Source: Candidatus Lustribacter sp. (GTDB lineage Bacteria > Vulcanimicrobiota > Vulcanimicrobiia > Vulcanimicrobiales > Vulcanimicrobiaceae). From it: a stretch of DNA of 64,000 nt. This document shows, piece after piece, positions 1,032 through 24,159 of the stretch. How positions within the stretch are numbered: position 1 is the first letter of the stretch; each line of letters opens with the position of its first letter. Below the pieces are notes generated by a model that worked only from the letters and a program-made list of their open reading frames with translations, was not told the DNA's origin and made no database searches. The DNA is taken from the NCBI GenBank assembly GCA_965277805.1, contig OZ255842.1, forward strand, positions 2,264,894 through 2,328,893, given 5' to 3'. The position numbers and the translations under genes are program-made.

Positions 1032-1032
1032 C

Positions 1033-3222: not shown

Positions 3223-3224
3223 GC

Positions 3225-5937: not shown

Positions 5938-5952
5938 GTGAGGAAGAGCCCG

Positions 5953-7844: not shown

Positions 7845-7920
7845 TGTTGAGACCGACGTTCGCGGTGCTGGGGTCAGATTACTTGACTGGCCGGCGCCAA
7901 TGGCCTTAAAATTAAATTCC

Positions 7921-9114
7921 ATGTCGCTATCGCGCGAGCTGAACGAGCTCTTGACACAGGTCGGGCCGGGCACGCCGGGCGGAAACCTGCTGCGTTACTA
8001 TTGGATGCCCATCGCCCCGGCCGCCGAGATCACACCGGAACGGCCGAAAAAACGCGTCCGCGTTCTGGGCGAGAATCTCGTGCTCTTCCGCGACGGCGCC
8101 GGCCGTTTCGGCTTGGTTCCCGAGCAATGTCCGCATCGCAAGTGTTCGTTGTTTTTCGGGTTCGCGGAAGACGATGGGCTGCGCTGTCCCTATCATGGCT
8201 GGAAGTTTTCGACCGAGGGCGAGTGCATCGATCAGCCCTTCGAACCGCCCGGCTCCAATCTCAAAAAGCTCGCGCAGCGTCCGCCCTACAAGGTCGAGCA
8301 GCTCGCGGGCATCCTGTTTGCGTATCTGGGGCCCGAACCGGCGCCGCTGCTGCCGCGCTGGGATCTGATGGTTCGGAAGGACGGCTTGCGCTCGATCGTC
8401 GTGATGTCGCAGCACAGCCATAACTGGCTGCAGGCGCAAGAGAACTCGCACGATCCCGTGCATCCGTTCTACCTCCACGCCGGCCTGATGAAGGCCCACG
8501 GTGTCGAAGAGAAGTTCAAGGCCGAGGTCGCGTACTTCAGCCGGCCATTGGAAGGCTTCGATTTCGAACTGCGGCGCGAGCCGGGCTGGATCGGCTTGAT
8601 GAAAAAGCGCATTTTCGCAGACGAAAGCGTCGAGCAAGAGTCGGGCAATCCGGCCATCTTTCCCAACGTGCTCTTCGCACCTCACGGAAAACAAGTCGTG
8701 ATCCACTGGCGTACGCCGGTCGACGATGCGCATACGAACATCACCTGGCTGGAATTCACGCCGAATGCCGGCGGCATCGAGCTCGAGCAGCCCGATGACG
8801 AGATCCCGGTGCGATACGTCGCACACCCCAAACGCCCCGACGGCGAATATGATCTCACGACCTTCGAAACGCAAGACCAAATGGCGTGGGAAACGCAAGG
8901 CCCGATCGTCGACCGCGAAACCGAACTACTCGGCGCATCCGACCGCGGCATCACGATGTTCCGCAAGCTTCTGCGCGAACAAATCGAACGCGTTCAACGC
9001 GGGGAGGAACCCGAAGGACTCATCCGCGACCCGGCAATCAACACATCCATCTCATTCAAGGTCTCATCCGGCCAACGCACCATGCGCGAACGCCTAGAAT
9101 CCACCGCCGGCTAA
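7921..9114 (+). CDS. Rieske non-heme iron oxygenase, alpha-only (phthalate/VanA-like family)
   Basis: The Rieske motif is CPHRKCSLFFG..x..CPYHGW, and the mononuclear-iron motif is NWLQAQENSHDPVHPFYLH. The N-terminus ..LTQVGPGTPGGNLLRYYW is typical of this family. An alternative ATG lies at 7900. Confidence 0.85.
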   Translation: MSLSRELNELLTQVGPGTPGGNLLRYYWMPIAPAAEITPERPKKRVRVLGENLVLFRDGAGRFGLVPEQCPHRKCSLFFGFAEDDGLRCPYHGWKFSTEGECIDQPFEPPGSNLKKLAQRPPYKVEQLAGILFAYLGPEPAPLLPRWDLMVRKDGLRSIVVMSQHSHNWLQAQENSHDPVHPFYLHAGLMKAHGVEEKFKAEVAYFSRPLEGFDFELRREPGWIGLMKKRIFADESVEQESGNPAIFPNVLFAPHGKQVVIHWRTPVDDAHTNITWLEFTPNAGGIELEQPDDEIPVRYVAHPKRPDGEYDLTTFETQDQMAWETQGPIVDRETELLGASDRGITMFRKLLREQIERVQRGEEPEGLIRDPAINTSISFKVSSGQRTMRERLESTAG

Positions 9115-9259: not shown

Positions 9260-11464
9260 TCAGGATCCCGCGGGGGCGAGCGCTGCAAGGTCTAGGCGGA
9301 TGTCATGAGGATCGCCTTCGTCTTTTCGGCAGATGTCTACGGAGTGCAGTAGACCGCAGGCCGGGCAGGCGTAGCGACGGGCCTCGAGTTTTGCATGCAC
9401 GATGAGGCCCATACCGAGTTCTTCGGCGTTTGCCGTCGCGTACGCGGCAGACGCACGCCAGTTTTCGCTTGCAGGCGCAAAGGCATGACCGCAGCGGCAG
9501 ACGGTCCAGAACGCGCCCGCATCGTCGCGGCGCACTTCAAGCCGGTCACCGATCCGGCAAGACCGTACGAGCGCACCTTTCGGTTCGGCCGTTCGCGGCA
9601 TGCGCACCGGCCAGGCGGTGCGTTCCGCGCGTAGCGCCGCGCGGCGTTGATCGCTTGCCGCAACGTCGATGTGCCCGTCCGCATCGAAGATGCAGCCGAA
9701 GAAACGCGATGCGGCTTCGCGCGTGATTGCGGCCTCGTCGAGATCGTGTGCGAGATCTTCGAAAGTGCGTTCGAGCGGATCGCCCCAGCCCGCACCGGCG
9801 GGCGGATCGGCACGGACGACGTCGCCCGCGCGGAGCACGAGCGTTTGCGGCGGCGGTTGCGGCGAAACATACGTTTCGCCGTCGATCTCATCGAAGAGCG
9901 GGATGTGTCCGCCCGCAAACGTAGCTTCGACGTCCGTATTCCGCAGCAGCACGCTGCCCATTTCCGATCCCGGGTAGCCGCCGAACACGCCGGTTGAATC
10001 GGGCACGTGCCAGGTGCGGCCGATGCGCTGGAAGGTCGGTTCCGAGCCGTGCGGCGTGTAGACGCCGACCACGCTCGAACCGCCGCGCCGCCGCCCGGCG
10101 CCGCCGCCGTCGGAGGCCCAACCGCGCCGCAGGTAAAGGATCGGCAGGTCTAGCTCGAGCGCTTCCACGTTGCTGATCTGCGCGCGCACGATGCCGTGAT
10201 GGCCGTGCGCGGACACGCCGTCGTGATCGGAATACGCGCCCGCGCCCGACGCCAACACGTCGAATGTGCGGCCGGCAAAACGTTCGCCGTTTTGATTCGT
10301 GCCGTAAAAGAACAGCGACCCGGGACGCCCGCACGATGCCGCCGCGGCTTCCGGCAAGTAGAGATCGGAGCAAGCCGCGAGGCGCGAGATCGCGAGCGTC
10401 GTCGCGAGGTCGACTTCCCAGACCGCACCGCTGATGTTCCCGCTGACCGCCGCCGGGCGCCGCGCGTTGCAGATGCGCCCTTCGGGGCACGTTACCTCCA
10501 GCACGCGATAGATGCCCGCGTTCCACGGAATGTCGTAAGCCAGCGTGGGCAGCAGCGCGCCGGAAATTCCCGCCATCAAACCGCCGAAGGTGCAGTTCGT
10601 CGAATTGGCAACTTGCGGCGAAGATTTCGAGTAATCGAGCAGCAGCCGGTCACCCGTTTTGGTCATTTCAACGTGCACGACCGGCACGTCTCCGAACGAC
10701 GGATCGTATTCGAGAAAACCCGCCGCCGTAACGGTCGCATCGGGCAGCTCGCGCAGACGCGCACGCAAACGTATTTCGGACGCGTCGCACAGCGCCGCCA
10801 TCACGCGGCGCAGCATCGGGACCCCATAGCGCCGCGCCAGTTGGCTCAACCCGTCGACTGCAGCCATGTTGGCAGCGAGCAGGCCTTTGAGATCGAGGCT
10901 CATCGTCGCCGGATGGCGGCAGTTACCGAGAATGAAGCGCCACAAATCGGTGCGCAGCGCTCCCCCTTCGACGAGCTTGAGCGGCGGCAGCAGCAGCCCT
11001 TCCTGAAACGCTTCGGTCGCCGGCAGCATGACGCTGCCTTCGTACAAGCCGCCGATGTCCGACATGTGCATCATCGCGCCGGCCCAGAAAAGCAGCTCGC
11101 CATCGATAAACACCGGCGTCATCAGTGCCATGTCCGGTGCGTGCACGGAGCCCGCCCAGGGATCGTTGACGACAAACGTATCGCCGGGCCCGATGTCCGG
11201 CGCGCAGTCGGCGATGACGCTCCGGCACAGTGCCGCCATGGTTGCGGCGTGGTGCAACACGGTCCGTCCCATCGCGGCGACCGAACCGTCGGCAAGGTAG
11301 AGACCGACGTTGTAATCCGACATCTCGGTGACGTGCTTCGAGCCGGAGATCGTCGTCAGGCGCGCCGCCGACTCATCCGTGATACCGAGAAGGCGGTGCC
11401 GGATCACCTCGAACGTGACCGCATCGGTCGCATCCGGGAGCGGCGGTTGTTGGAGCGTACTCAT
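9260..11464 (-). CDS. HyuB-family large subunit with C-terminal acetone-carboxylase-gamma-like zinc ribbon (paralogue 2)
   Basis: I chose the start MSTLQQ.. at 11464, which forms an ATGA overlap with the upstream stop (11461-11464). The core is about 70% identical by eye to 1033-3222. The tail (9263-9514) reads WTVCRCGH..ENWR..YACPACGLLH..DPHDIRL. Confidence 0.9.
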   Translation of the reverse strand: MSTLQQPPLPDATDAVTFEVIRHRLLGITDESAARLTTISGSKHVTEMSDYNVGLYLADGSVAAMGRTVLHHAATMAALCRSVIADCAPDIGPGDTFVVNDPWAGSVHAPDMALMTPVFIDGELLFWAGAMMHMSDIGGLYEGSVMLPATEAFQEGLLLPPLKLVEGGALRTDLWRFILGNCRHPATMSLDLKGLLAANMAAVDGLSQLARRYGVPMLRRVMAALCDASEIRLRARLRELPDATVTAAGFLEYDPSFGDVPVVHVEMTKTGDRLLLDYSKSSPQVANSTNCTFGGLMAGISGALLPTLAYDIPWNAGIYRVLEVTCPEGRICNARRPAAVSGNISGAVWEVDLATTLAISRLAACSDLYLPEAAAASCGRPGSLFFYGTNQNGERFAGRTFDVLASGAGAYSDHDGVSAHGHHGIVRAQISNVEALELDLPILYLRRGWASDGGGAGRRRGGSSVVGVYTPHGSEPTFQRIGRTWHVPDSTGVFGGYPGSEMGSVLLRNTDVEATFAGGHIPLFDEIDGETYVSPQPPPQTLVLRAGDVVRADPPAGAGWGDPLERTFEDLAHDLDEAAITREAASRFFGCIFDADGHIDVAASDQRRAALRAERTAWPVRMPRTAEPKGALVRSCRIGDRLEVRRDDAGAFWTVCRCGHAFAPASENWRASAAYATANAEELGMGLIVHAKLEARRYACPACGLLHSVDICRKDEGDPHDIRLDLAALAPAGS

Positions 11465-12402
11465 GCGGTCAGCGTCTCGCGCGCGAACGACAGATCCCAC
11501 ATCTCGAGCGGATTGAAGCCGTCGAGGCCGGCGTACTGCGCGCGCGCGATCTCGAGCGCGTTCGCCAAGCCCGCGATCGTCGGGAGTGGCGAGCCGCCAA
11601 CCTCAGCGACGAGATGCCCCACGATGCGCGCGATATCATCATCGCCGTTCATGGTGAAGTGTTCGCGCAAATCTGCGAGACACTCCGCGGTCACGAGGTC
11701 GAGCGTCCATCCCGGTTCGCTGCTTACGCGATGGTTGGCATCGTGCATCGCGTGCGCGAGCGCGCGAATCGCTTGCGGTGCTCGTGTTACCAAGGCTTCT
11801 GTCGTGGTCGGAATGACGTGGCCCCCTTCGAATGGGAACGGCGGCGTGGGAATCTGGTGCAGTCCGGCCGCGAGCGCGGCATCGGCGTAGGCCGGCGACA
11901 TAAAACAGGCATCACAGCGGCCATCGGCTACGGCTTTCCAAACGCCCCAACGACCGAGTTCCTTCTCCTCGACGACGACCTGTTCGATCTCGTGGAGCAG
12001 ACCGAGATGGCCGAAGGCGACCGTGGGCAGCGAACGTTGCGGGCCGTGATCGCGCACGGCGATGCGCTTTCCGCGCAGATCGTTCATCGACTCAATCGAT
12101 CCGCGCACGAGCAGCCATTCGGTCCACACGTGCGCAGCCGAAGCGACCGTGACAAACGGTGCGCCGGCTGCCCGCAGGCGTTGCAAGCCCCAGTAGTTCT
12201 CGGCCAGCACATCGACCTCACCGCGGCGGAGCTTTTCACTCCAATCCTCGCTGCCGGCTTGACGATGACGCACGAGTTCGACCTCGAGGCCGTACGGCGC
12301 GGCGCAACGCCGAAGCGCACACAGATAGGGCAACCGGTCGACATCGCGATAGAGCAGCGTCAGCCGCAACTCAGCGGGCGCGGATGACGACATTCCCACC
12401 AT
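11461..12402 (-). CDS. Leaderless PBP-fold (NMT1/SsuA-like) protein, partner of HyuB-gamma (paralogue of 96-1031)
   Basis: 313 aa with no signal peptide. Its sequence LLYRDVDRLPYL..GKRIAVRDHGPQRS..GRCDA.FM.PAY.DAALAAGL matches 96-1031. Its stop overlaps the HyuB-gamma start. An alternative Met lies at 12393. Confidence 0.75.
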   Translation of the reverse strand: MVGMSSSAPAELRLTLLYRDVDRLPYLCALRRCAAPYGLEVELVRHRQAGSEDWSEKLRRGEVDVLAENYWGLQRLRAAGAPFVTVASAAHVWTEWLLVRGSIESMNDLRGKRIAVRDHGPQRSLPTVAFGHLGLLHEIEQVVVEEKELGRWGVWKAVADGRCDACFMSPAYADAALAAGLHQIPTPPFPFEGGHVIPTTTEALVTRAPQAIRALAHAMHDANHRVSSEPGWTLDLVTAECLADLREHFTMNGDDDIARIVGHLVAEVGGSPLPTIAGLANALEIARAQYAGLDGFNPLEMWDLSFARETLTA

Positions 12403-14482
12403 GGTCTTTGACCGCGCGCTGGTTCGGCCCCAGCACGACGGTCGTCCCGAAGAATTCGAGAATCGCCGGCCCGTCGATGTCCGTATCCGCGGGGACGCGT
12501 TCGCCGCGATAGATCGCGGTCGGAACCATCTCTTTCTCGAACATCACGTTGCGATCGCCGAGCTTGGCACCGGCCAGCGATTGTTCGGCCGCTCCGTTCT
12601 CGGACGGCGACACGCTCGGTGAGGGCACGCGCCCTTCCACGCGGAACGTGTTGATCTCGATTCCGGCCTCGGCGAGACTCGTTCCCGGACCGTAGATCCG
12701 CTCGTAGCGCAGGTAGAAGTCGCGTATCAGCGCGTCGAGCGCCACGCGATCGAGCGGGTCGTTCGCGACCGGAACTGCCAACTCGTGCACTTGCTTGCGG
12801 AAACGGAAGTACAGGGTTCGCTTGAGCTGCAGCTGCGGATGCTCGTGCATGGCGGCGCGGCAGCGTTCTTCCAATTGCGCGAAGGTCCCGTTGATGCGCT
12901 CGAGGTCAAAGTGCTCGGCGGGATTCGGCGTTCCGGGCGGCGTGTGCTGAGGATCGCTGCGCTGAAAGCTGCGAAAACGATCGGACGATACCGCGCCGTA
13001 GCCGGAGTGTACGGTCGCCGTGTGCGGTACGACCACGGTGGAAATACCGGCCTCTTGCGCGATCGCGTAGCCGTGCGTCGGTCCAGCGCCGCCGTAGGCG
13101 AACATCACGAAGTCGCGCGGATCGTACCCCTGCTGAACGGTCAGCGTACGCACGAGATCCGCCATTTGGTTTTCCGCGACCGAACGGATTCCCGATGCGG
13201 CTTCCGTTACCGATAGGCCGAGCGGCTCGGCAATGTGCAGCCGGATCGCTTCTTCGGCCAGCTCGCGATAGAGCGGGATGGCCCCGCCGAGGAAATACTT
13301 CGGATCGATGATGCCGAGCACGACATCGGCGTCGGTAACCGTCGGCCGCGTTCCACCTGCACCGTAGCAGGCCGGCCCGGGCACGGCGCCCGCGCTTTCG
13401 GGACCGACCAGCAGCACGCCGTGCTCGATCGACGCGATGCTCCCGCCACCGGCGCCGATTGCGGTCACGCGAATCCGGGGCGAAGCGATATGGTAACTTC
13501 CGGTGATACTCTGCGTTGCGACCAGCGGTTCGCCGTCGACGATCAGACCGGCATCGAAGCTCGTGCCGCCCATGTCGCCGGTGATGACGTTGGGAAAACC
13601 GAGGCGGCGCGCGAGCGCGGCCGACGCGAGGACGCCGCCGGCCGGACCCGAGACCATGAGCTCGACCGCGCGACCGCCGGCCTCGCGCGCTTCGACCACG
13701 CCGCCGGCCGAATCCATTACGGTGAAGTCGCCGGTGAAACCGTTCTGCCGCAGACGATCCTCGAGCACTTGCACGTAACGGCGAATGATCGGTCCGAGGT
13801 ATGAATTGACCACGGTCGTCGCGGTGCGCTCATATTCGCCGATGATCGGTGCGATCTCGCAAGAGAGGGTGATGAAAACGTCCGGGCACTCTTCGCGAAT
13901 GATGCGCGCCGCTTCGATCTCGTGATCCGCACGAACGAACGACCAGAGAAAGCAGATCGCGACGGCATTCACGCCCGCCTCGCGAATCCGCTGCGCGGCC
14001 GCTTGCACTTGATCGAGCTGCAACGGAACGATCTCGGCGCCGGCGGAGTCGAGCCGCTCGTCGATTTCGATGATGTCTGCCCGCGGCACGAGCGGCACCG
14101 GATTGCGGCGTTCGCTGTAGTGGCTCGAGCGCTCGCCGATGCCCGTCCACGACCCCATCGCGCGCTGAATGAACATGGTATCGGCGAAGCCGCGCGTCGT
14201 AAGCAGTACGGTACGTTCGCCCTTGCGCTCGATGTAGGCGTTCGTTGCGGCGGTCGTCCCGTGCGCGAAGTAACTCACGCTGCGCGTGAACTGCTCGAGC
14301 GTCAAATCGTGATCGGCGGCCGCGAGCTTGAACCCTTCGAGCACCGCTTGACTGCGGTCGCTCGGCGTCGTCGGCACCTTGAATTGACGCAATGCGCCGG
14401 CTTCGTCGATCACCACCATGTCGGTAAACGTCCCGCCGATATCGGTCCCAACCAGGAACCGCCGCCCGTCAGTCGTTGGCAT
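12371..14482 (-). CDS. Hydantoinase A/oxoprolinase (HyuA)-family ATPase subunit (paralogue 1)
   Basis: The six-frame ORF runs to 15067, but its first 195 codons are Arg/Ser-rich shadow sequence. The real start is MPTTDGRRFLVGTDIGGTFTDMVV at 14482. It has the ASKHA-type motifs GTDIGGTFTD and ITGDMGGTSFD. Confidence 0.9.
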   Translation of the reverse strand: MPTTDGRRFLVGTDIGGTFTDMVVIDEAGALRQFKVPTTPSDRSQAVLEGFKLAAADHDLTLEQFTRSVSYFAHGTTAATNAYIERKGERTVLLTTRGFADTMFIQRAMGSWTGIGERSSHYSERRNPVPLVPRADIIEIDERLDSAGAEIVPLQLDQVQAAAQRIREAGVNAVAICFLWSFVRADHEIEAARIIREECPDVFITLSCEIAPIIGEYERTATTVVNSYLGPIIRRYVQVLEDRLRQNGFTGDFTVMDSAGGVVEAREAGGRAVELMVSGPAGGVLASAALARRLGFPNVITGDMGGTSFDAGLIVDGEPLVATQSITGSYHIASPRIRVTAIGAGGGSIASIEHGVLLVGPESAGAVPGPACYGAGGTRPTVTDADVVLGIIDPKYFLGGAIPLYRELAEEAIRLHIAEPLGLSVTEAASGIRSVAENQMADLVRTLTVQQGYDPRDFVMFAYGGAGPTHGYAIAQEAGISTVVVPHTATVHSGYGAVSSDRFRSFQRSDPQHTPPGTPNPAEHFDLERINGTFAQLEERCRAAMHEHPQLQLKRTLYFRFRKQVHELAVPVANDPLDRVALDALIRDFYLRYERIYGPGTSLAEAGIEINTFRVEGRVPSPSVSPSENGAAEQSLAGAKLGDRNVMFEKEMVPTAIYRGERVPADTDIDGPAILEFFGTTVVLGPNQRAVKDHGGNVVIRAR

Positions 14483-15266
14483 AGTCGTGATCCGGATGGT
14501 TGACGGCGCCGACACGCCAGTAACCACGGGTGACGATGCGCTCCTTATCGAGGCCCGAGCGTTCGACGATCGTTCCGCGCAAACGCCGCATCGCGATCGC
14601 TTCACAGCCCACGTAGACGCGGCCGGCGCCCGCCGGCCACGCGAACTTCTCGAGCTCGGCGAACAGTGCCGAGCCCGGCCCGCTGTCATCGCGCACGACC
14701 CAACGGATGTCGTTGCCGGGTGCGCCCGGCAGCGGCCGCTCCTCATCGGCAGTGAGCATCTCGATGAACGCGGTGACCTTGACGCTCGCCGGTAATACCT
14801 CAAGCAGCGTCTCGAGCGCCGGCAGCGCCGTCTCGTCGACCGCGAACACATACCAGGCGGCGGTTTCGTCGACTTCATAGCCGCGCGCGGGCCCGAGCAA
14901 CACGAGTTCCTGACCCCGTTGCGCCTGCATCGCCCAGGTCGAACCCGGACCGTCTCCGTGCAGTACGAAATCGACCTCGAGGCGTTGCGTTTGCGGATCG
15001 AAACGGCGCGGCGTATACGTGCGCGTGGTCGTCCGCCGCGGACCGTCCGGATCGTACGGCGGCACATTAGTTTGCCCCGGCTCCGGGAAGATCAGCTTCA
15101 AATGCGCGGCGGGACCGGACCACACGAAGCCCGCCAATTCTTGGCCTTCAAACGTAATGCGCCGAACCCGCGGGCTCAGGCGCTGCACGCCCGCAACGCT
15201 GATCCGGCGCGGCGTGCGCGGTTTGCGCTTGCGGGGCGAAGGCGCGGTTGATGTCGTTGTTTCCAA
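14469..15266 (-). CDS. Siderophore-interacting-protein (SIP/ViuB)-family FAD-binding reductase
   Basis: The TTG start at 15266 has AGGAGA 5-6 nt upstream. Motifs are RTYTPRRFD (RxYT FAD motif), VDETALPAL and RGYWRVG. It overlaps the HyuA start by 14 nt. Confidence 0.8.
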   Translation of the reverse strand: METTTSTAPSPRKRKPRTPRRISVAGVQRLSPRVRRITFEGQELAGFVWSGPAAHLKLIFPEPGQTNVPPYDPDGPRRTTTRTYTPRRFDPQTQRLEVDFVLHGDGPGSTWAMQAQRGQELVLLGPARGYEVDETAAWYVFAVDETALPALETLLEVLPASVKVTAFIEMLTADEERPLPGAPGNDIRWVVRDDSGPGSALFAELEKFAWPAGAGRVYVGCEAIAMRRLRGTIVERSGLDKERIVTRGYWRVGAVNHPDHDYAND

Positions 15267-15275
15267 GAAAGTCTC

Positions 15276-17462
15276 CTAAGCCAAGACGAGCCGGATGTCG
15301 TGTAAATCCGGACTTTCCTTGCGGGACACGTCGACCGCATGCAGACGTCCGCAGGCGGGGCACGCGTAGGCACGTCCCTCCATCGCCTCGTTGATCTTCA
15401 AGCCCATGCCGAGCTGATCGGCCGGAATGATCTTCCGTCCTGCGAACTCGCGCCAATTGTCCCGTGCGTGTGCGAGCGTATGCCCGCAGTTGCAGCGCGT
15501 CCAATAGTCGCCGGCCGCATCGCGGTCGACCTGCATGCGATCCCCGAGCGGCGCCACGCGTACGAGGTCGCCGGCCGGCTTCGCATCGAGCGTCTTCTTC
15601 CGCGGCCAAGCCTTGCGCTCGGCATGGATCTTCGCGCGCGATTCATCCGAACGCGCTGTATCGAGCGTTCCGTCGGCGCTCAGCACGCAGCCGTACAGCC
15701 GTTCCGCAGCCGCCGCTGAAATCGCGCCCGCGAGCAGGTCACGCTGCACTTCGGCGACAGGCCGGTCGAGCGGATCGCCCCAACCCGCACCGGTCGGCGG
15801 ATTCGCGCGGACGACGTCGGTGGCATCCAGCAGCATATTCATCGAGCGATCTGCGGGATCAATCCACTCGCCCTTCAGATCGCCGAAATCCGGAACCTGA
15901 CCCGATTTGAGCCGCTCGAGCACGTCGGTGTGCCGAATGAGATCGTGCCCGGTTTCCGAGCCCGGATAGCCGCCGAAGAGACCCAGCGAGTCGGGCGTCT
16001 TCCACTCCTGATTGATGTACTGAAACGTCGCTTGGGCTTTGTGCGGTGCGTAGACGCCAAGCAAGCTCAGGCCGCCGCGATGGCTGCCGGCGCCGCCGCT
16101 GTCCGTCGCCCAGCCGCGCCGCAGATACAAGATCGGGTAGTCGAGTTCGAGCACCTCGGCGTTGCTGATCAGCGTGCGCTCCATGCCGTGGTGACCTTGC
16201 GTCGAGACACCGTCGTGATCGGCATACGCACCGCCGCCCGACGCGATGACGTCGTACGTGCGCCCGCGGTAGCGTTCGCCGTGCTGGTTCATTCCGAAGA
16301 AGGCCAGCGTGCGCGGGCGTCCGCACGGCGCGGCCTGCGCCTCGCCCAGTAACGTGTCCGAGCACGCGACGATCCGCGATACGGCGATGAGCGTCGCGAC
16401 TTCTGATTCCCACACGGCGCCCGCGATGTTGCCGCTGACGGCGGCCGGACGCTTCGCGTTGCAAATACGGCCTTCGGGGCAAATGATCTCGAGCGGACGG
16501 AACAAGCCTTCGTTCCATGGGATGCCGAAGGCGAGCGTCGGCAAGAGCGCCGCCGCAACGCCGGCCTTGAGACCGCCCAGCGTACAGTTGATCGCGCTGC
16601 CGACTTGGGCCGTCGACCCGGAGAAATCCAAGTGCAAACGGTCGCCCTCTTTGCGCAGCGCGACGTGAACCTCGGGAACCTCCCCGCGCTGGGGATCGAA
16701 TTCCATATATCCGGAACCGGTCACGAGACCGTCGGGTAGTTCCATGATCCGGCGCCGAAAGCGCGCTTCGGATGACGAGATCAACCGCGCCATCGCGATC
16801 TGCAGCAGATCGGCGCCGTAACGTCGGACCAGGTTCTGAAGCCCGTCGCGCGCGGCGAGGTTGGAGGCGATCAAGCCGCGCAAATCGAGGCTCATCGTCG
16901 CCGGGTGGCGGCTGTTGTTGGTGATGAAATGCAGCAGATCGTTGCGAACGCGGCCGCCTTCCACGATCTTGATGGGCGGGATCTGCATGCCTTCCTGATA
17001 GCACTCGACGGCCGCTTGCACGAGGCTGCCCTCCGCCATTCCGCCGATGTCCGACATGTGCATGATCGCGCCGGCCCACAACACCAGCCGGCCGTCGATG
17101 TGCAAGGGCGCGAGCATGGCGACGTCGGGTGCGTGCAGCGAGCCCTTCCAAGGGTCGTTGACGATGAACATGTCGCCTTCGTTGATCCCGGGATCGACCG
17201 CGCAGTCTGCGATCACCGCGCGCACCATCTCAGCCATACAGGCGGAGTGGTGCAGCGAGGTGTGCCCCATAGCCGCGACCGATCCGTCGGCGAGATACAA
17301 ACCGACGTTGAAGTCGGACATTTCGGTCACTTGCTTCGAGCCCGAGATCGTCATCAAACGCGCGGCTTGTTCGCTCGTGATGCCGTGCAGCCGATGCCGG
17401 ATGACCTCGAAGGCAACCGGGTCGATGACCTCGTCTTCGCGGACCTTCTCAAATGTCGTCAC
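15276..17462 (-). CDS. HyuB-family large subunit with C-terminal acetone-carboxylase-gamma-like zinc ribbon (paralogue 3)
   Basis: The GTG start at 17462 has AGGAA upstream; the product is 728 aa. The core shows FEVIRHRL..SGSKQVTEMSDFNVGLY..VNDPWKGSLHAPD. The tail (15279-15509) reads WTRCNCGH..DNWREF..YACPACGRLH..DLHDIRL. Confidence 0.9.
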   Translation of the reverse strand: MTTFEKVREDEVIDPVAFEVIRHRLHGITSEQAARLMTISGSKQVTEMSDFNVGLYLADGSVAAMGHTSLHHSACMAEMVRAVIADCAVDPGINEGDMFIVNDPWKGSLHAPDVAMLAPLHIDGRLVLWAGAIMHMSDIGGMAEGSLVQAAVECYQEGMQIPPIKIVEGGRVRNDLLHFITNNSRHPATMSLDLRGLIASNLAARDGLQNLVRRYGADLLQIAMARLISSSEARFRRRIMELPDGLVTGSGYMEFDPQRGEVPEVHVALRKEGDRLHLDFSGSTAQVGSAINCTLGGLKAGVAAALLPTLAFGIPWNEGLFRPLEIICPEGRICNAKRPAAVSGNIAGAVWESEVATLIAVSRIVACSDTLLGEAQAAPCGRPRTLAFFGMNQHGERYRGRTYDVIASGGGAYADHDGVSTQGHHGMERTLISNAEVLELDYPILYLRRGWATDSGGAGSHRGGLSLLGVYAPHKAQATFQYINQEWKTPDSLGLFGGYPGSETGHDLIRHTDVLERLKSGQVPDFGDLKGEWIDPADRSMNMLLDATDVVRANPPTGAGWGDPLDRPVAEVQRDLLAGAISAAAAERLYGCVLSADGTLDTARSDESRAKIHAERKAWPRKKTLDAKPAGDLVRVAPLGDRMQVDRDAAGDYWTRCNCGHTLAHARDNWREFAGRKIIPADQLGMGLKINEAMEGRAYACPACGRLHAVDVSRKESPDLHDIRLVLA

Positions 17463-17476
17463 GTTGGATTCCTATG

Positions 17477-18505
17477 CTAGTGCGAGAACAGCGACGGGGT
17501 CTTGATCGCTTTGTCCAGATATGAGAAATCGATCACGCTGTGATAGTCCCAGGCTGGATTGGAGATGATTTGCTCGTCCTTGAGCACTTGAATGGCATTG
17601 GCAAACGCTTTCGGATCGAGCCTGGCATCGACCGGTGGCGTATTGCCGCGGAACGGTCCGGCGGCATAATACTCATACGCATCGGTGGCTGCGGCGACGC
17701 TGAGCGGACCGCCCTTCGCCAGCAGGTCGATCGCTTGCGCACGATTCTTTGGATCGAGGATGTAGTCACAACCCTTGGCCAGCGCGCCCATGAAGCGCAC
17801 GGCGGTATCAGGATTCGCCTTGAGCCAATTGCGGGTCGACATCACCAAGCCGTTGTTATACAGCTTCTGGCTCGCGCCGAAATGGGTCAGGGTGTGCATG
17901 CCGTTGAAATCGCCGCGATCGACGGGGTCGTTGATGTACGCGGCTGCAGCTTGGCCGCTCACGACCGCCGCGAGCCGGCCGGTGCTGGCACCGCCGATGT
18001 AGAGCGGCTTCCATTTGTCCTTGCCGACGTACCCGTTGATGAGCGCCGTACCGATCGCCTCGTTCGACGTGTTGTGCGCGGGCAGTGCGATCGTCTTCCC
18101 CACCAGCTGAGCGGGCGAGGTTATCGACGGCGGCGAGATTAGCGAAACCGGCGAACCTTCGCTGCTGCCCAACACGACGAGCTGGTCGCTCTGACCGTTC
18201 GCCGCCGGAATGACCGAGGCCGCGCCGGCCGTGACGATGTCGGCTTGCCCGCTGGTCAGTGCGCTGACGATCGCCGGATCGCCGTAAAGCACGACCGAGT
18301 TCCCGATGCGGATCCCGGCCTTCGCGAAATAGTTCCCTTGCTGCGCGCCGTAGATGCACCACGAGCCCAGTGTCGAGCCGTAGGTCGCGATGTTGACGGT
18401 CTTCAAATCGGGAGCTGCGTTCGTCTGCGCGACCGTCGCGGAATCCATGGAACCGAGTAACGTCAACGACACGGCGCCGCACAGCAACATCCGGGCAGTA
18501 ATCAT
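17477..18505 (-). CDS. Secreted NMT1/SsuA-like substrate-binding protein (first gene of the HyuB/HyuA operon)
   Basis: 342 aa with N-terminal signal MITARMLLCGAVSLTLLGSMDSATVAQ and AAGGGG upstream. It has the PBP pattern ..LVGKTIALPAHNTSNEA... Its C-terminus matches the partial gene at 1-81. Confidence 0.8.
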   Translation of the reverse strand: MITARMLLCGAVSLTLLGSMDSATVAQTNAAPDLKTVNIATYGSTLGSWCIYGAQQGNYFAKAGIRIGNSVVLYGDPAIVSALTSGQADIVTAGAASVIPAANGQSDQLVVLGSSEGSPVSLISPPSITSPAQLVGKTIALPAHNTSNEAIGTALINGYVGKDKWKPLYIGGASTGRLAAVVSGQAAAAYINDPVDRGDFNGMHTLTHFGASQKLYNNGLVMSTRNWLKANPDTAVRFMGALAKGCDYILDPKNRAQAIDLLAKGGPLSVAAATDAYEYYAAGPFRGNTPPVDARLDPKAFANAIQVLKDEQIISNPAWDYHSVIDFSYLDKAIKTPSLFSH

Positions 18506-18593: not shown

Positions 18594-18998
18594 ATGTCAA
18601 CTACCAGCGCAAAAACGCTGATTCCCGGACCCGAGGGCAAAACGATCCGCGGCGGCAACTGCTACGGCGTCAAGGCCGGCGGCTTTCTCTTTCTGTCGGC
18701 CGTGCGCGGCACGTTGCCGAACGACGGCGGCGTGCCGTCCGATCTCGAGGAACAAGCGCGTCAGCTCTTCCGCAACATCCAAGACACGCTCAAGCAATCC
18801 GGTGCGACGATGGATCAGGTCGTCAAGATGGCTGTCTACATGATCGATCTTGAAAACGACCGTCCGGTCTTCAACAAGGCCTGGAAAGAGTTTTTCGGCG
18901 ATCAGCCGCCGGCGCGCTTCGCGGTCCAGGTGACGGGCATCGGCAATCCCGGCGACGGCAGCCGTTTCCTCTGTGACGTTACGGCGCTGGCTCCGTAG
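18594..18998 (+). CDS. RidA/YjgF/L-PSP-family enamine/imine deaminase-like protein
   Basis: The ATG at 18594 has GGAG 8 nt upstream. Family-typical sequence includes ..GGFLFLSAVRG.., QARQLFRNIQDTLKQSGATMDQVVKMAVYM and ..PARFAVQV... Confidence 0.85.
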   Translation: MSTTSAKTLIPGPEGKTIRGGNCYGVKAGGFLFLSAVRGTLPNDGGVPSDLEEQARQLFRNIQDTLKQSGATMDQVVKMAVYMIDLENDRPVFNKAWKEFFGDQPPARFAVQVTGIGNPGDGSRFLCDVTALAP

Positions 18999-19010: not shown

Positions 19011-20105
19011 CTAGAGCGTGAGCTGTGGCGTGACGCCGTGCTTCTTCATCTCCTCGAGCCAGAGCGCGTGGATACGCGGATCCTGATCCGCGTATTCGAT
19101 TTGCCCACCACCGTCGCGCACGCTGGTGGCGAGGGCGCCCTGCCCCTCGGCGTCACCTTGCGAGGAGAGCTGCGAATCAGTTAGCGGGTAGCGCACGTTG
19201 CTGACGCCCGCTGCAATGTAGCGCGAGGGGTAGTTGCTCGTTACGAAGTGCTGGTGGAACTGGCCCTCGATGGGCGGAAAGACGACCCCGGGCTTCCAAT
19301 CGACGCGCGTGAATTCGGTTTCGCCCGCGAACCACAGCAGCGAATACCCCGTACCCGTCACTGTGAAGACGTGCCGGCCGGCGCCGTGCCGGTGCGCTTT
19401 CTTGTACGTTCCCGCTTGGATTTCCGAACAGTGAACGTGCATGTTTCCGTCGGCCAGAATGAAAACGATATTGGACGATCCCGTGCCGCGCTCGTTCCAA
19501 GCGTGCAACTCGATCGACGCCAGATCAGGGATGAAATTCGTTTCCCAGAAATTCCAACCGGGGCGGCCGGTGAAGAGTTCGCCGCCGCCGTCGTAGTCTT
19601 TGTCCTCGCCGATGCGTGCGCGGAAAAAATGCGGGTTGTCGAAGATGAAGGCATCGTCGTGAAAGAGCTTCATCATCAGCGGCAGCGACGTCGTCGAGGC
19701 GATGACGGCCCGGTTCCTGCCGTCGCCGTTGTGCAGCCGGTACGTCGCGTTCAGCGGAATCGCAAACATGCTGTTGTGTTGCCATTCGAAGCTGTGTTTG
19801 CGCCCATTGGGAAACTCCACCTGAGCGCTGCCGCGGCCTGCCACGACGTACATCACCTCTTCGTAGAGATGGCGCTGCGGTTCGGTCGACGCCCCGGGCG
19901 GCAAATCGATCAGGAAAAGATTGCAGAAATCGCCGCGCCCGCGCAAATGCACCGCCGCCGCGTTGGCACCCAAACGCGGCCAGTGTTTGGTTTCCACGTC
20001 CAGCAACTCGCACGAGATGCCTTCGTGAACGATGAGACCCTCGCGCGCCACCCACTCATTGTACGGGTTGATCCCGACCCGCACGCTCTTGCCGTCCGTT
20101 GCCAT
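19011..20105 (-). CDS. Bicupin protein (gentisate 1,2-dioxygenase-like fold)
   Basis: 364 aa with two cupin barrels. Only the C-terminal barrel has a full His cluster (AHRHGAGRHV ... QFHQHF); the N-terminal barrel has PQRH. Its start shares one nt with the HyuA stop (TGATG at 20103-20107). Confidence 0.7.
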   Translation of the reverse strand: MATDGKSVRVGINPYNEWVAREGLIVHEGISCELLDVETKHWPRLGANAAAVHLRGRGDFCNLFLIDLPPGASTEPQRHLYEEVMYVVAGRGSAQVEFPNGRKHSFEWQHNSMFAIPLNATYRLHNGDGRNRAVIASTTSLPLMMKLFHDDAFIFDNPHFFRARIGEDKDYDGGGELFTGRPGWNFWETNFIPDLASIELHAWNERGTGSSNIVFILADGNMHVHCSEIQAGTYKKAHRHGAGRHVFTVTGTGYSLLWFAGETEFTRVDWKPGVVFPPIEGQFHQHFVTSNYPSRYIAAGVSNVRYPLTDSQLSSQGDAEGQGALATSVRDGGGQIEYADQDPRIHALWLEEMKKHGVTPQLTL

Positions 20106-23361: not shown

Positions 23362-24159
23362 CTAGGCCGTGCCGAGCTCCTCGCTCACGCGGGCGGCGGC
23401 TTCTTGCAGTGCGCGGCCGATCTCGTTGGCCCGGCTCAATGAAAGATCGGAAGCAAACGCGAGCGCCGTGATGCAGCCGATCGGGTAGCCGTCCGGGTTG
23501 ATGATCGCCGCCGCGCTCGCGCGCATGCCCTCGACCCAGTCGCCGTCGTCGACGGCGTAGCCACGCTTACGAATCGCGGCTAGCTCCGCTATCAGCGCCT
23601 TCGGCTCAACGATGCTCTTGGATGTGCACGGTTCGAGACCGCGCGCAACGTAGCGCTCGACTTCCTTTGGATCGAGGCGCGCCAGGCTCGCACGTCCGGG
23701 TGCAACGCAGTGCGCCGGAATACGTGAGCCCGGGCGCAGCATCAGGATCAGCGGCCGCGTTCCCTCGACGCTGTCGAGGTACACGACGTTGCCGTCTTCG
23801 TAGCGCATCAGCACCATCGTATGTTCGTAGTCGTAAGCGAGACGGCGCAGATATGGTCCGGCGATGCGCCGGATCGGATAGTGCGCCATCGCTCGCGTCG
23901 CGAGCATCGGCAAAAGCGAGCCCAGCCGGTACGTTTCCGAGCCCGGCAGCCGGCTCAGCAAATCTTCTTCTTCCATCGTCTGAATGACGCGATGCGCCGT
24001 CGCCGGCGAGAGGTCCAAGCGATCGCTGATATCTTGAAGCGACAACGTCGGCTCGGCGAGACTGAACAGCTTGAGAATTTCCACCGCGCGCCGAACCGCC
24101 TGCGTGCGCCGATTGAAGCTCGGTTCGCGTACGCTTTTCTTCTTGGAGGGTGCGGCCAT
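23362..24159 (-). CDS. IclR-family transcriptional regulator
   Basis: 265 aa. The N-terminal wHTH reads AVRRAVEILKLFS..LSLQDISDRLDLSPATAHRVIQTMEEEDLL, followed by a C-terminal IclR effector domain pattern. Confidence 0.9.
   Translation of the reverse strand: MAAPSKKKSVREPSFNRRTQAVRRAVEILKLFSLAEPTLSLQDISDRLDLSPATAHRVIQTMEEEDLLSRLPGSETYRLGSLLPMLATRAMAHYPIRRIAGPYLRRLAYDYEHTMVLMRYEDGNVVYLDSVEGTRPLILMLRPGSRIPAHCVAPGRASLARLDPKEVERYVARGLEPCTSKSIVEPKALIAELAAIRKRGYAVDDGDWVEGMRASAAAIINPDGYPIGCITALAFASDLSLSRANEIGRALQEAAARVSEELGTA

What the first reader, a model, noticed from the sequence alone, without database searches (positions are those of the whole stretch)
9260..18505. Six-gene operon: SBP / HyuB-gamma / SIP flavin reductase / HyuA / leaderless PBP-fold protein / HyuB-gamma
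Six co-directional minus-strand genes are separated by at most 14 nt or overlap. The overlaps are a 14-nt SIP/HyuA overlap, a 32-nt HyuA/PBP-like overlap and an ATGA at 11461-11464. The operon encodes two different HyuB-gamma subunits but only one HyuA, plus two proteins not known to me as parts of hydantoinase/carboxylase complexes. Acetophenone carboxylase has a core with paralogous large subunits (alpha-alpha'-beta-gamma) plus a roughly 34 kDa accessory subunit. I do not remember which fold is duplicated there, nor the fold of the accessory subunit. The 311-313 aa PBP-like proteins here are about that size. The locus may encode a multi-subunit ATP-dependent carboxylase or ring-opening enzyme of new composition, with a dedicated uptake SBP.
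Basis: inference. Interest (0 to 1): 0.75.

Follow-up and report, generated by a model that had tools for sequence, protein, structure and literature searches.

The report
ATP-dependent ring enzyme with binding-protein-fold partner
The six-gene operon is real, but what recurs across several bacterial phyla is a smaller unit: an ATP-using hydantoinase/carboxylase-type enzyme whose second subunit carries a fused zinc-ribbon and is paired with a rare cytoplasmic protein that has the fold of a transporter binding protein, set among aromatic-ring degradation genes and undescribed in the literature I could search.

Summary
**Observation:** confirmed. Six minus-strand genes (18505-9260) are separated by 14 and 9 nt, or overlap by 14, 32 and 4 nt (ATGA).

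**Interpretation:** partly supported.
- The leaderless NMT1-fold protein belongs to a rare family (58 clusters among 5.8 billion proteins).
- Its motif-bearing clade lies within 10 kb of HyuA/HyuB in 27 of about 42 loci. These span Eremiobacterota, Actinomycetota, Chloroflexota, Binatia and Alphaproteobacteria.
- It co-diversified with the gamma-fused HyuB.
- The SIP reductase appears in no related locus.
- "Two HyuB, one HyuA" comes from the chosen boundaries. A second HyuA lies at 20105-22210, and a third HyuB-gamma plus a second PBP-like gene lie at 96-3222.
- HyuB duplications are lineage-specific.
- Neither extra protein resembles the gene at the acetophenone carboxylase epsilon position.

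**Best reading:** paralogous copies of a HyuA / HyuB-gamma / PBP-fold module act on a ring-derived intermediate in an aerobic aromatic-catabolic island. Usual neighbours are a LigB-like dioxygenase, an alpha/beta-hydrolase, RidA and Amidohydro_2.

**Open:** substrate, reaction type and any physical association. This is a new variant of a known kind, of moderate interest.

The parts
17477..18505 (-). First gene of the operon. Periplasmic NMT1/SsuA-type solute-binding protein, 342 aa, with an N-terminal leader.
   Evidence: Pfam NMT1 5e-14. NCBIfam gives only weak SsuA/taurine-family hits. The leader MITARMLLCGAVSLTLLGS is visible. No permease or ATPase gene is adjacent.
15276..17462 (-). HyuB-gamma paralogue 2 (g2), 728 aa. 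Hydantoinase_B fused to an acetone-carboxylase-gamma-like zinc ribbon.
   Evidence: Pfam 2.4e-119 and 6.5e-6. The CxC...CxxC motif is intact. It is 86% identical to the HyuB-gamma of metagenome locus L002. It is 58-59% identical to g1 and g3.
14469..15266 (-). SIP/ViuB-family flavin reductase, 265 aa. Specific to this locus.
   Evidence: Pfam FAD_binding_9 8e-31 and SIP 1.8e-30. It belongs to a large family of 1853 hits. It is absent from all related loci. Of its three closest homologues examined, none is next to HyuAB, and one follows a Rieske gene.
12371..14482 (-). HyuA paralogue 1 (A1), 703 aa. The ATP-binding ASKHA-type subunit.
   Evidence: All three Pfam HyuA domains are present. The phosphate motifs DIGGTFTD and DMGGT, and the alpha-type fingerprint ERLDSAG, are seen; the motifs come from PMC8453981 and PMC5214803. 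PDB scores: CapA 382 bits, Apc alpha 359, N-methylhydantoinase 354.
11461..12402 (-). Leaderless NMT1-fold protein PBP1, 313 aa. The rare conserved partner.
   Evidence: 58 clusters among 5.8e9 proteins. 30 representatives at E<=1e-30 among 1.84e9. Invariant motifs are YRDxDR, ENYW, GRWGxWK and NPLxMWDLSFA. AF2 pLDDT is 93.6. Foldseek matches class II PBPs: SsuA, ThiY, THI5, PqqT and DszB, with TM about 0.6.
9260..11464 (-). HyuB-gamma paralogue 1 (g1), 734 aa counted from the ATG of the ATGA overlap.
   Evidence: Pfam 4e-114 and 8.1e-5. The alignment with its paralogues begins at M13 of the longest ORF. The public annotation calls the same 734-aa product.
18597..18998 (+). RidA/Rid-family deaminase gene on the opposite strand. 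It separates the operon from the upstream unit.
   Evidence: Pfam Ribonuc_L-PSP 7.2e-18. NCBIfam Rid family 1.8e-16. RidA genes also neighbour the module in L002, L003, L083 and L084.
19011..20105 (-). Divergent cupin, 364 aa, last gene of the upstream unit.
   Evidence: Pfam gives weak cupin hits. There are faint hits to 5-aminosalicylate and gentisate 1,2-dioxygenases.
20105..22210 (-). HyuA paralogue 2 (A2), 701 aa, 81% identical to A1.
   Evidence: Pfam, identity. The LigB-like-HyuA pairing recurs in L002 at 85% and 88% identity.
22207..23286 (-). Divergent LigB-like (class III extradiol dioxygenase-like) protein, 359 aa, overlapping HyuA2 by 4 nt.
   Evidence: Pfam LigB 2.1e-9. NCBIfam hits to 3-carboxyethylcatechol 2,3-dioxygenase at 1e-12, far below cut-off. 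Found in about 24 related loci. A promoter-like site lies at 23353-23324.
23362..24159 (-). IclR-family regulator.
   Evidence: Pfam. NCBIfam BhcR/PcaR-like. 93% identical in L002.
96..1031 (+). Second leaderless NMT1-fold protein (PBP2), 311 aa, 64% identical to PBP1.
   Evidence: (P0006).
1033..3222 (+). HyuB-gamma paralogue 3 (g3), 729 aa, immediately after PBP2.
   Evidence: Pfam 5e-115 and 2.2e-5. 66% identical to g1. The same operon without any HyuA occurs in L085 and L086.
3937..4935 (+). Leaderless PBP-fold enzyme homologous to 4,5-dihydroxyphthalate decarboxylase.
   Evidence: PDB 9jp7 at E=1.1e-49. SsuA-family hit 3.6e-7.
7747..9114 (+). LigXa-like Rieske oxygenase, convergent with the operon. 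A candidate electron acceptor for SIP.
   Evidence: Pfam Rieske 2.7e-18 and LigXa_C 9.9e-11. A close SIP homologue follows a Rieske gene in L081.

Best explanation
The six genes form one operon inside a large aerobic aromatic-catabolic island, probably of an Eremiobacterota genome. The operon is not a new five-protein complex. It holds paralogous copies of a smaller conserved module with three parts.

**The module**
- HyuA, the ATP-binding kinase-type subunit.
- HyuB, with a fused gamma-type zinc ribbon.
- A dedicated cytoplasmic protein with the fold of an NMT1/SsuA transporter binding protein.

**Proposed mechanism** (inferred from solved relatives, not shown here)
1. HyuA uses ATP to phosphorylate the enol or iminol oxygen of an enolisable carbonyl or cyclic amide in an aromatic or ring-derived intermediate.
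2. The activated intermediate passes to HyuB-gamma. There it is either hydrolysed, which opens the ring, or carboxylated.
3. The PBP-fold protein acts directly with HyuB-gamma. It binds an anionic aromatic or heterocyclic ligand in its inter-lobe cleft and either presents the substrate or processes the product.

HyuA is interchangeable between HyuB-gamma/PBP pairs, because some pairs are encoded with no HyuA nearby.

**The other two genes**
- SIP is a local addition. It most likely supplies electrons to the neighbouring Rieske oxygenase.
- The SBP serves uptake through an ABC transporter encoded elsewhere.
For: **Operon and domains:**

**The PBP-like protein is a real, rare family**
- It is rare, leaderless and strongly conserved, with eight invariant charged residues at strand ends and helix starts, where PBPs bind ligands.
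- The fold is confirmed.

**Linkage to HyuA/HyuB**
- 27 of about 42 motif-bearing loci have HyuA and/or HyuB within 10 kb. This covers every subclade except Dehalococcoidia.
- The PBP-like gene is directly adjacent to, or overlaps, HyuB in the window (twice) and in L002, L003, L005, L010, L013, L015, L018, L022, L030 and L085.
- PBP-like and HyuB trees are congruent within Eremiobacterota: PBP1 with g1, PBP2 with g3 and L005, and the L002/L009 type with g2.
- SBP-PBP-HyuB-gamma operons with no HyuA within 10 kb exist.

**Enzyme features**
- The ATP-binding motifs are present in HyuA (PMC8453981).
- The four-Cys gamma site is intact.
- HyuA and HyuB are roughly equidistant from lactamases and from Apc.

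**Pathway neighbours and SIP**
- A LigB-like protein, an alpha/beta-hydrolase, RidA and Amidohydro_2 recur as neighbours.
- SIP is not conserved with the module.
Against: - No physical interaction, transcript, substrate or activity was tested.
- A Dehalococcoidia/SAR202 subclade carries all four motifs but sits between Amidohydro_2 and Rieske genes, with no HyuAB within 10 kb.
- A cultured Niveispirillum plasmid has IclR, HyuA, HyuB-gamma and a LigB-like gene with no PBP-like gene. The partner is therefore not universally required by gamma-fused HyuB.
- In several actinobacterial loci, one to three genes separate the PBP-like gene from HyuAB.
- PBP-fold proteins can be stand-alone enzymes. One such enzyme lies in this same island.
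- Hydrolase versus carboxylase cannot be decided from sequence. PMC5214803 states that no consensus motif separates them.
Confidence: 0.42

Rival explanations
1. The PBP-fold protein is an independent enzyme of the same pathway, for example a cofactor-free aromatic decarboxylase or lyase like 4,5-dihydroxyphthalate decarboxylase or DszB. It acts before or after the HyuAB step without touching the HyuAB complex. Co-localisation would then reflect only a shared pathway.
For: - A true 4,5-dihydroxyphthalate decarboxylase homologue with the same fold, also leaderless, lies in the same island and in related loci.
- DszB, THI5 and MqnD appear among the structural matches.
- Many charged residues are invariant.
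- Motif-bearing members in Dehalococcoidia have no HyuAB nearby.
- Niveispirillum has HyuA and HyuB-gamma without the PBP-like gene.
Against: - No invariant Cys, His or Lys is present, unlike the catalytic residues I recall for DszB and THI5 (my recollection; for the family).
- The gene overlaps both HyuA and HyuB-gamma and was co-duplicated with HyuB-gamma.
- Similarity to the decarboxylase family is at fold level only: hhalign probability 79% in forced global mode, and no phmmer hit.
Confidence: 0.3
2. One reading: all five soluble proteins (two different HyuB-gamma, one HyuA, SIP and the PBP-like protein) assemble into one multi-subunit ATP-dependent carboxylase. The PBP-like protein would be the counterpart of acetophenone carboxylase epsilon.
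For: - All five genes are translationally coupled in one operon.
- Two HyuB per HyuA also occur in L010, L018, L022 and L030.
- HyuB forms the central dimer in solved relatives, so a mixed HyuB pair is sterically conceivable (PMC5214803).
Against: - SIP is absent from every related locus.
- Most relatives have 1:1:1 gene counts. HyuB duplicates are recent and lineage-specific rather than two conserved orthologue classes.
- A second HyuA and a third HyuB-gamma lie nearby.
- Apc duplicates HyuA, not HyuB.
- The protein at the ApcE position is unrelated to either candidate.
Confidence: 0.05
3. An ordinary hydantoinase, oxoprolinase or lactamase pair sits beside unrelated neighbours. The PBP-like gene would be a transporter binding protein that lost its leader, or whose start was miscalled.
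For: - Source annotations name close relatives 'N-methylhydantoinase A/B' and 'ABC-type ... substrate-binding protein'.
- The best NCBIfam matches are to caprolactamase subunits.
Against: - NCBIfam scores are far below the equivalog cut-offs (544 and 206 bits against 1000).
- A gamma domain is present, and it is reported absent from all hydrolase complexes.
- The leaderless state and four private motifs are conserved in 40 members from several phyla.
- There is no detectable similarity to the operon's own SBP (E=1.6).
- Linkage to HyuAB is conserved.
Confidence: 0.1

Closest known systems
[quoted passage not shown]
   Same: - HyuA-like and HyuB-like subunits, plus a four-Cys gamma element bound to the HyuB-like subunit.
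- An aromatic substrate context.
- Dependence on an extra, loosely associated protein of about 30 kDa.
- HyuA carries the alpha-type fingerprint ERxDSxG.
   Different: - No alpha' paralogue: both HyuA copies are alpha-type and 81% identical.
- Gamma is fused to HyuB instead of being a separate gene.
- The gene order is not apcABCDE.
- The ApcE-position protein (faint URO-D-like) is unrelated to the PBP-like or SIP proteins.
- NCBIfam scores of 161-392 bits fall far below cut-offs of 1250-1500.
Acetone carboxylase Acx (alpha beta gamma)2 (PDB 5SVB, 5M45)
   Same: A three-element composition of HyuA-like, HyuB-like and gamma zinc ribbon, with no alpha' subunit.
   Different: - It is the most distant of the solved relatives (HyuB E about 3e-28).
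- Gamma is a separate gene, acxC.
- It has no PBP-fold partner.
- Its substrate is aliphatic.
Caprolactamase CapAB and related ATP-dependent lactamases, including the IaaCE gamma-lactamase of indoleacetate degradation (PDB 6YRA; PMC8453981)
   Same: - It is the highest-scoring characterised relative for both subunits.
- ATP-dependent activation of a cyclic amide fits the RidA and hydrolase neighbours.
- IaaCE sets a precedent for opening a lactam fused to an aromatic ring.
   Different: - These are two-subunit enzymes without gamma.
- The equivalog cut-off of 1000 bits is not reached (544 and 206 bits).
- No PBP-fold partner is described for them.
Cytoplasmic PBP-fold enzymes: 4,5-dihydroxyphthalate decarboxylase (PDB 9JP7), DszB desulfinase, THI5
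   Same: - Leaderless proteins of about 310-350 aa with an NMT1/SsuA-type class II binding-protein fold.
- They are found in aromatic catabolism.
- A true 4,5-dihydroxyphthalate decarboxylase homologue is encoded 7 kb away.
   Different: - No sequence-level match for the PBP-like protein. The relationship is at fold level only.
- The family has its own invariant motifs.
- None of the known enzymes is linked to HyuAB.

Membership tests
Hydantoinase/oxoprolinase-ketone carboxylase superfamily (HyuA/HyuB) | HyuA with Hydant_A_N, Hydantoinase_A and Hydant_A_C domains. HyuB with the Hydantoinase_B domain. | tested here: met
   All domains score far above the Pfam gathering cut-offs for both HyuA and all three HyuB copies.
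Hydantoinase/oxoprolinase-ketone carboxylase superfamily (HyuA/HyuB) | ATP phosphate-binding motifs DxGGTxTD and DxGGT in the HyuA subunit (PMC8453981). | tested here: met
   HyuA1 contains GTDIGGTFTD and GDMGGTS (sequence; motif definition).
Acetophenone carboxylase (Apc) | A second, divergent HyuA-like subunit (alpha', about 30% identical to alpha) that lacks the R/KERiDsxG fingerprint. | tested here: not met
   The two HyuA copies are 81% identical. Both match ApcC (alpha) much better than ApcA (alpha'). HyuA1 carries ERLDSAG.
Acetophenone carboxylase (Apc) | An epsilon subunit (ApcE) homologue. | tested here: not met
   I used the gene after apcD in Neopusillimonas aromaticivorans (L082 10752-11626), stitched across a frameshift. 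Its apcD product is 87% identical to A. aromaticum ApcD. hhalign against the PBP-like family gives probability 0.3%. BLASTP against SIP is not significant. The only family signal is URO-D at E=0.004. Caveat: orthology to ApcE is inferred from position and size.
Acetophenone carboxylase (Apc) | NCBIfam equivalog scores above cut-off (ApcA 1250, ApcC 1500, ApcD 1500 bits). | tested here: not met
   Observed scores are 217-223, 367-392 and 161-171 bits.
Acetone carboxylase (Acx) | A gamma element with four conserved Cys (zinc site). | tested here: met
   Pfam Acetone_carb_G scores 23-27 bits against a cut-off of 21. CxC...CxxC is present in all gamma-fused HyuB copies. Here it is a C-terminal domain, not a separate subunit.
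Acetone carboxylase (Acx) | acxABC gene order with a separate acxC, and close similarity of the large subunits. | tested here: not met
   Gamma is fused and the gene order differs. Acx is the weakest PDB relative (E 3e-28 for HyuB and 1e-86 for HyuA).
Caprolactamase / ATP-dependent lactamases (CapAB) | NCBIfam equivalog cut-off of 1000 bits for CapA and CapB, and a two-subunit enzyme without gamma. | tested here: not met
   Scores are 544-546 and 206-212 bits. A gamma domain is present.
Carboxylase versus hydrolase activity within the superfamily | Incorporation of bicarbonate into product versus hydrolysis of a cyclic amide. | not testable with these tools
An enzyme assay is needed.
NMT1/SsuA/THI5 class II periplasmic-binding-protein fold | Sequence and fold match. 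| tested here: met
   Pfam NMT1 scores 23.5 bits against a cut-off of 20.5. SsuA_fam gives 2.6e-8. Foldseek gives E 1e-15 to 1e-12 against SsuA, ThiY, THI5 and PqqT, with probability 1.00.
ABC-transporter solute-binding protein (functional class) | A signal peptide or lipobox, and a cognate permease and ATPase. | tested here: not met
   No leader is present in any of the 40 members, and strand 1 starts at residue 12. In the window the gene is flanked by HyuA and HyuB, not by transporter genes.
4,5-dihydroxyphthalate decarboxylase family | Sequence homology to PDB 9JP7. | tested here: inconclusive
   phmmer finds no hit for PBP1. Profile-profile comparison in global mode gives probability 79%, E 1.9e-6 and 18% identity. 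The neighbour at 3937-4935 is the clear homologue (E 1.1e-49).
SIP/ViuB flavin reductases | FAD_binding_9 and SIP domains. | tested here: met
   Pfam 8e-31 and 1.8e-30. Linkage to the HyuAB module was tested and not found.

The most novel reading that the evidence does not exclude
The leaderless NMT1-fold protein is an obligate third component that binds HyuB-gamma. It would convert a HyuAB-type kinase/hydrolase scaffold into a new class of ATP-dependent enzyme acting on aromatic or N-heterocyclic rings. One version has it holding the anionic ring substrate or bicarbonate at the HyuB active site. Interchangeable HyuB-gamma/PBP cassettes sharing one HyuA would then set substrate specificity.
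Probability: 0.2. Interest if true: 0.8.

Novelty: new variant of a known kind. Interest (0 to 1): 0.55.

Why it matters
Few members of the HyuA/HyuB superfamily have been characterised: acetone and acetophenone carboxylases, oxoprolinase, hydantoinases and caprolactamase. How the carboxylases couple ATP use to chemistry is still unclear, and so is the role of the Apc epsilon subunit.

A branch with a fused gamma domain and a conserved binding-protein-fold partner would add a new architecture and probably a new substrate class. The branch is embedded in aerobic ring-cleavage pathways of Eremiobacterota, Actinomycetota, Chloroflexota and Binatia.

It would also be another case of a transporter binding protein recruited to a cytoplasmic role. 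Cultured carriers exist, including Phytohabitans kaempferiae, Paractinoplanes toevensis, Dactylosporangium and Cryptosporangium, so the idea can be tested directly.

Tried and rejected
1. **PBP-like or SIP as the Apc epsilon counterpart.** Rejected after I retrieved an Apc operon and compared the ApcE-position gene. I had a vague recollection that ApcE is ViuB/SIP-like; the data did not bear it out.
2. **A conserved heteromer of two HyuB orthologue classes.** Rejected because the duplicates are sister pairs within lineages.
3. **SIP as a conserved component.** Rejected.
4. **Literature searches.** Searches for a described HyuAB system linked to extradiol, lignin or protocatechuate pathways, or to SIP, found nothing relevant. 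Jobst et al. 2010 is not held.
5. **Fusion proteins as Rosetta-stone evidence.** P0423 carries only an NMT1 domain.
6. **Unbiased clustering of neighbour ORFs.** Naive ORF calling in high-GC DNA produced spurious antisense ORFs, so I relied on targeted tblastn instead.
7. **Distant relatives.** The 25-34% identical group was first counted as the same family. The tree and motif check show it is a sister family lacking three of the four motifs.
8. **Neighbours of distant members.** These were uninformative.
9. **Look-up of the source contig by exact protein.** It found nothing.
11. **Complex prediction.** Not attempted.

Full report
**1.

Six minus-strand ORFs occupy 18505-9260. I recomputed the boundaries and spacing.

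| Gene | Coordinates | Spacing to the next gene |
|---|---|---|
| SBP | 17477-18505 | 14-nt gap |
| HyuB-gamma 2 (g2) | 15276-17462 | 9-nt gap |
| SIP | 14469-15266 | 14-nt overlap |
| HyuA1 | 12371-14482 | 32-nt overlap |
| PBP-like (PBP1) | 11461-12402 | 4-nt ATGA overlap |
| HyuB-gamma 1 (g1) | 9260-11464 | last gene |

- GC3 is 0.74-0.80 for all six genes.
- Pfam supports every assignment. Both HyuB proteins have a C-terminal Acetone_carb_G domain just above the gathering score.
- The SBP has a hydrophobic leader. PBP1 has none.
- An existing public annotation of the same 5.53-Mb contig calls identical products, including the 734-aa g1 that starts at the ATGA.
- Terminator-like hairpins are no more frequent than in shuffled sequence.

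**2. The boundaries were too narrow**

- *Upstream.* A plus-strand RidA gene (18597-18998) separates the operon from a second minus-strand unit. That unit reads IclR (23362-24159), LigB-like (22207-23286), a second HyuA (20105-22210, 81% identical to HyuA1) and a cupin (19011-20105).
- *Left end of the window.* A plus-strand operon runs in this order:
  - a second leaderless PBP-like gene (96-1031, 64% identical to PBP1);
  - a third HyuB-gamma (1033-3222, 66% identical to g1);
  - a PhtC-like class II aldolase-fold protein;
  - a 4,5-dihydroxyphthalate decarboxylase homologue (3937-4935; PDB 9JP7, E=1e-49);
  - a PEP-mutase/isocitrate-lyase-family protein.
- *Gene counts.* The window therefore holds 3 HyuB-gamma, 2 HyuA and 2 PBP-like genes. 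'Two HyuB, one HyuA' is a product of the chosen frame.
- *Rest of the window.* It is an aromatic-catabolic island. It carries two LigXa-like Rieske oxygenases, two Amidohydro_2 genes, an FAA hydrolase, an aldehyde dehydrogenase and about ten NMT1-type SBP genes.

**3. The PBP-like protein is a distinct, rare, cytoplasmic family**

- A search of 5.8 billion proteins found 58 clusters.
- A profile search of 1.84 billion representatives found 30 at E<=1e-30 and 176 at E<=1e-10.
- Tblastn found no match in 72,556 plasmids.
- Forty aligned members all lack a leader. They share four private motifs: YRDxDR, ENYW, GRWGxWK and NPLxMWDLSFA.
- The invariant residues R19, D20, D22, R23, E68, R117, R151 and E267 sit at strand ends and helix starts in the model. 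Binding proteins of this fold hold their ligands at such positions.
- The AF2 model is confident (pLDDT 93.6, pTM 0.90).
- The model matches SsuA, ThiY, TauA, PqqT, THI5 and, further down the list, DszB and MqnD. TM is about 0.6 and identity at most 17%.
- No solved structure is a sequence relative.
- PBP1 has no detectable similarity to the operon's own SBP.

**4. Gene-neighbourhood conservation**

A scan of GTDB species representatives returned 74 loci. I screened them, together with loci fetched from metagenomes, using tblastn with all window proteins. A tree with a motif check shows a deep split.

- *Sister family.* One clade is 25-34% identical to PBP1 and comes mostly from Binatia and Alphaproteobacteria. 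It lacks three of the four motifs. It sits beside cupin and Rieske genes and never beside HyuAB. I treat it as a sister family.
- *Motif-bearing clade.* It contains about 42 loci, and 27 of them have HyuA and/or HyuB within 10 kb. This holds in every subclade: Eremiobacterota, Actinomycetota (Micromonosporaceae, Streptosporangiaceae and others), Chloroflexota, Binatia/'delta', and Stellaceae and other Alphaproteobacteria.
- *Exception.* One Dehalococcoidia/SAR202 group shows Amidohydro_2, PBP-like and Rieske genes in that order, without HyuAB.
- *Other unlinked cases.* These are short contigs, or a second copy on a contig that does carry HyuAB.
- *Recurring neighbours.* With Pfam-annotated gene calls these are a LigB-like protein, an alpha/beta-hydrolase, RidA, Amidohydro_2 and NMT1-type ABC transporters.
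  - Streptosporangiaceae-like contig (L083): HyuB, HyuA, LigB, Abhydrolase_1, RidA, PBP-like.
  - Eremiobacterota MAG (L084): HyuB-gamma and HyuA divergent from SBP, Abhydrolase_1, RidA, LigB, PBP-like.
- *SIP.* It occurs in none of these loci. Its three closest homologues examined lie elsewhere, one directly after a Rieske gene.

**5. The PBP-like gene tracks HyuB rather than HyuA**

- It is adjacent to, or overlaps, HyuB in the window (twice) and in at least ten other loci.
- In close relatives L085 and L086 the operon reads SBP, PBP-like, HyuB-gamma, aldolase II, PhtD-like, PEP mutase. No HyuA lies within 10 kb. HyuA must therefore act in trans.
- Within Eremiobacterota the HyuB and PBP-like trees are congruent. 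PBP1 pairs with g1, PBP2 pairs with g3 and L005, and the L002/L009-type PBP pairs with g2. This indicates duplication of the pair as a unit.
- The window lacks the PBP type that pairs with g2, so its operon looks like a mosaic.
- HyuB duplications recur independently: two HyuB-gamma in L010, and tandem HyuB-HyuB in L018, L022 and L030. In each case the copies are sisters. This argues for diversification of the subunit that handles the activated intermediate. It argues against an ancient beta/beta' heteromer.

**6. What kind of HyuAB enzyme this is**

- HyuA has the phosphate-binding motifs and the alpha-type fingerprint (PMC8453981 and PMC5214803).
- HyuA is about equally similar to CapA (382 bits), Apc alpha (359) and N-methylhydantoinase (354).
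- HyuB is about equally similar to N-methylhydantoinase (2e-54), CapB (5e-46) and Apc beta (3e-45). Acetone carboxylase is far behind (3e-28).
- All NCBIfam equivalog cut-offs are missed by a wide margin.
- The fused gamma domain keeps its four Cys in every gamma-fused member. PMC5214803 reports gamma as absent from all hydrolase complexes, but also as distant from the active sites and not obviously catalytic.
- PBP-linked HyuB proteins in Stellaceae, Binatia and L003 are short (about 575 aa) and lack gamma.
- Gamma-fused HyuB also occurs without a PBP-like gene, in a cultured Niveispirillum plasmid (40% identity) and more distantly in haloarchaea and Rhodococcus.
- The enzyme is thus a separate branch of the superfamily. 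Sequence alone cannot say whether it carboxylates or hydrolyses.

**7. Comparison with acetophenone carboxylase**

- Apc duplicates the HyuA-like subunit (alpha and alpha', 30% identical). It needs a 32-34 kDa epsilon subunit of unknown role (PMC5214803).
- I rebuilt part of the Apc delta sequence from a PDB alignment. I used it to find close homologues and fetched the Apc operon of Neopusillimonas aromaticivorans.
- The gene after apcD is frameshifted in that assembly and encodes about 291 aa. It has only a faint URO-D-like signal.
- It is unrelated to the PBP-like family (hhalign probability 0.3%) and to SIP.
- Neither extra protein in the window is an epsilon homologue. The functional analogy of a loosely attached accessory protein remains possible but untested.

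**8. Most likely mechanism**

*Shown:*
- the operon structure;
- the domain content;
- the fold;
- the family's rarity;
- conserved linkage and co-diversification of PBP-like with HyuB(-gamma) and HyuA;
- the absence of conservation of SIP.

*Inferred from solved relatives:*
- HyuA phosphorylates an enol or iminol oxygen with ATP.
- HyuB-gamma then processes the activated intermediate.

*Inferred from context:*
- The substrate is an aromatic or ring-derived, probably anionic, compound.
- The RidA, alpha/beta-hydrolase and Amidohydro_2 neighbours, and the similarity to lactamases, lean towards a nitrogen-containing or lactam intermediate.
- The gamma domain and the many decarboxylase-family neighbours keep a carboxylation or decarboxylation-linked reaction open.
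- The PBP-fold protein most likely binds that ligand and works directly with HyuB-gamma.
- A stand-alone catalytic role, as in the 4,5-dihydroxyphthalate decarboxylase encoded nearby, is a serious rival.
- SIP most plausibly reduces the adjacent LigXa-like Rieske oxygenase.

**9. Verdict**

There is a conserved, undescribed accessory protein linked to an unusual HyuAB branch. It is not a five-protein complex, it does not contain SIP, and it is not Apc-like in composition. I rate it a new variant of a known kind, of moderate interest, and directly testable in cultured actinomycetes.

Noticed in passing
window 96-3222 (+): A second leaderless PBP-like gene (311 aa) sits immediately before a third HyuB-gamma (729 aa). 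The same operon occurs in metagenome contigs L085 and L086 with no HyuA within 10 kb.
   Followed up: yes
window 3937-4935 (+): A leaderless NMT1/SsuA-fold protein is homologous to 4,5-dihydroxyphthalate decarboxylase (PDB 9JP7, E=1e-49). It lies next to a PhtC-like class II aldolase-fold protein (3138-3932; 3,4-dihydroxyphthalate decarboxylase model, 1.4e-23). A second PhtC-like gene is at 32829-33572. Homologues recur in loci L001, L005, L006, L008 and L010.
   Followed up: partly
window, whole: About ten NMT1-type solute-binding protein genes are scattered through 64 kb: 5938-6912, 6909-7973, 17477-18505, 24282-25217, 27113-28057, 31143-32111, 33562-34884, 57208-58161 and others. Among the ORFs I scanned, the only BPD_transp_1 permease is at 54417-55256. 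This is an unusually high ratio of binding proteins to transporters.
   Followed up: no
window 18597-18998 (+): A RidA/Rid-family deaminase gene lies on the opposite strand, between the cupin and the SBP. RidA genes accompany the HyuAB/PBP-like module in four other loci. This hints at an enamine or imine intermediate.
   Followed up: partly
window 7747-9114 (+) and 36653-37927 (-): Two LigXa-like Rieske oxygenases have no ferredoxin or reductase gene beside them among the neighbouring ORFs I scanned. The SIP-family reductase in the operon may serve the first one.
   Followed up: no
window 25214-26176 and 25953-27086 (+): Two Amidohydro_2 ORFs overlap in their longest forms. The second matches the 4-sulfomuconolactone hydrolase model at 1e-88, below its cut-off. 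Its true start is probably further downstream.
   Followed up: no
L082 10752-12705 (Neopusillimonas aromaticivorans CP128233): In this acetophenone carboxylase operon, the ApcE-position gene shows a faint URO-D-like signal. It is followed by a CobW-family GTPase, a putative zinc chaperone. That is notable because Apc binds zinc. The assembly has many frameshifts in the apc genes.
   Followed up: partly
L087 (Niveispirillum cyanobacteriorum plasmid NZ_CP025613, 325308-345470): A cultured alphaproteobacterium carries IclR divergent from HyuA (51% identity) and HyuB-gamma (40%), followed by a LigB-like gene and a class II aldolase-like gene. It has no PBP-like gene. The plasmid record is unannotated here.
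   Followed up: partly
L043-L075 (Binatia and Alphaproteobacteria MAGs): A sister family of leaderless NMT1-fold proteins keeps only the C-terminal MWDL motif. It is consistently adjacent to a roughly 360-aa cupin like the one at window 19011-20105, often with a Rieske gene. Some members occur as tandem pairs.
   Followed up: partly
window 42001-46000: AT skew rises to 0.16-0.18 across the branched-chain-type ABC transporter genes. Elsewhere in the window it stays within about +/-0.09.
   Followed up: no
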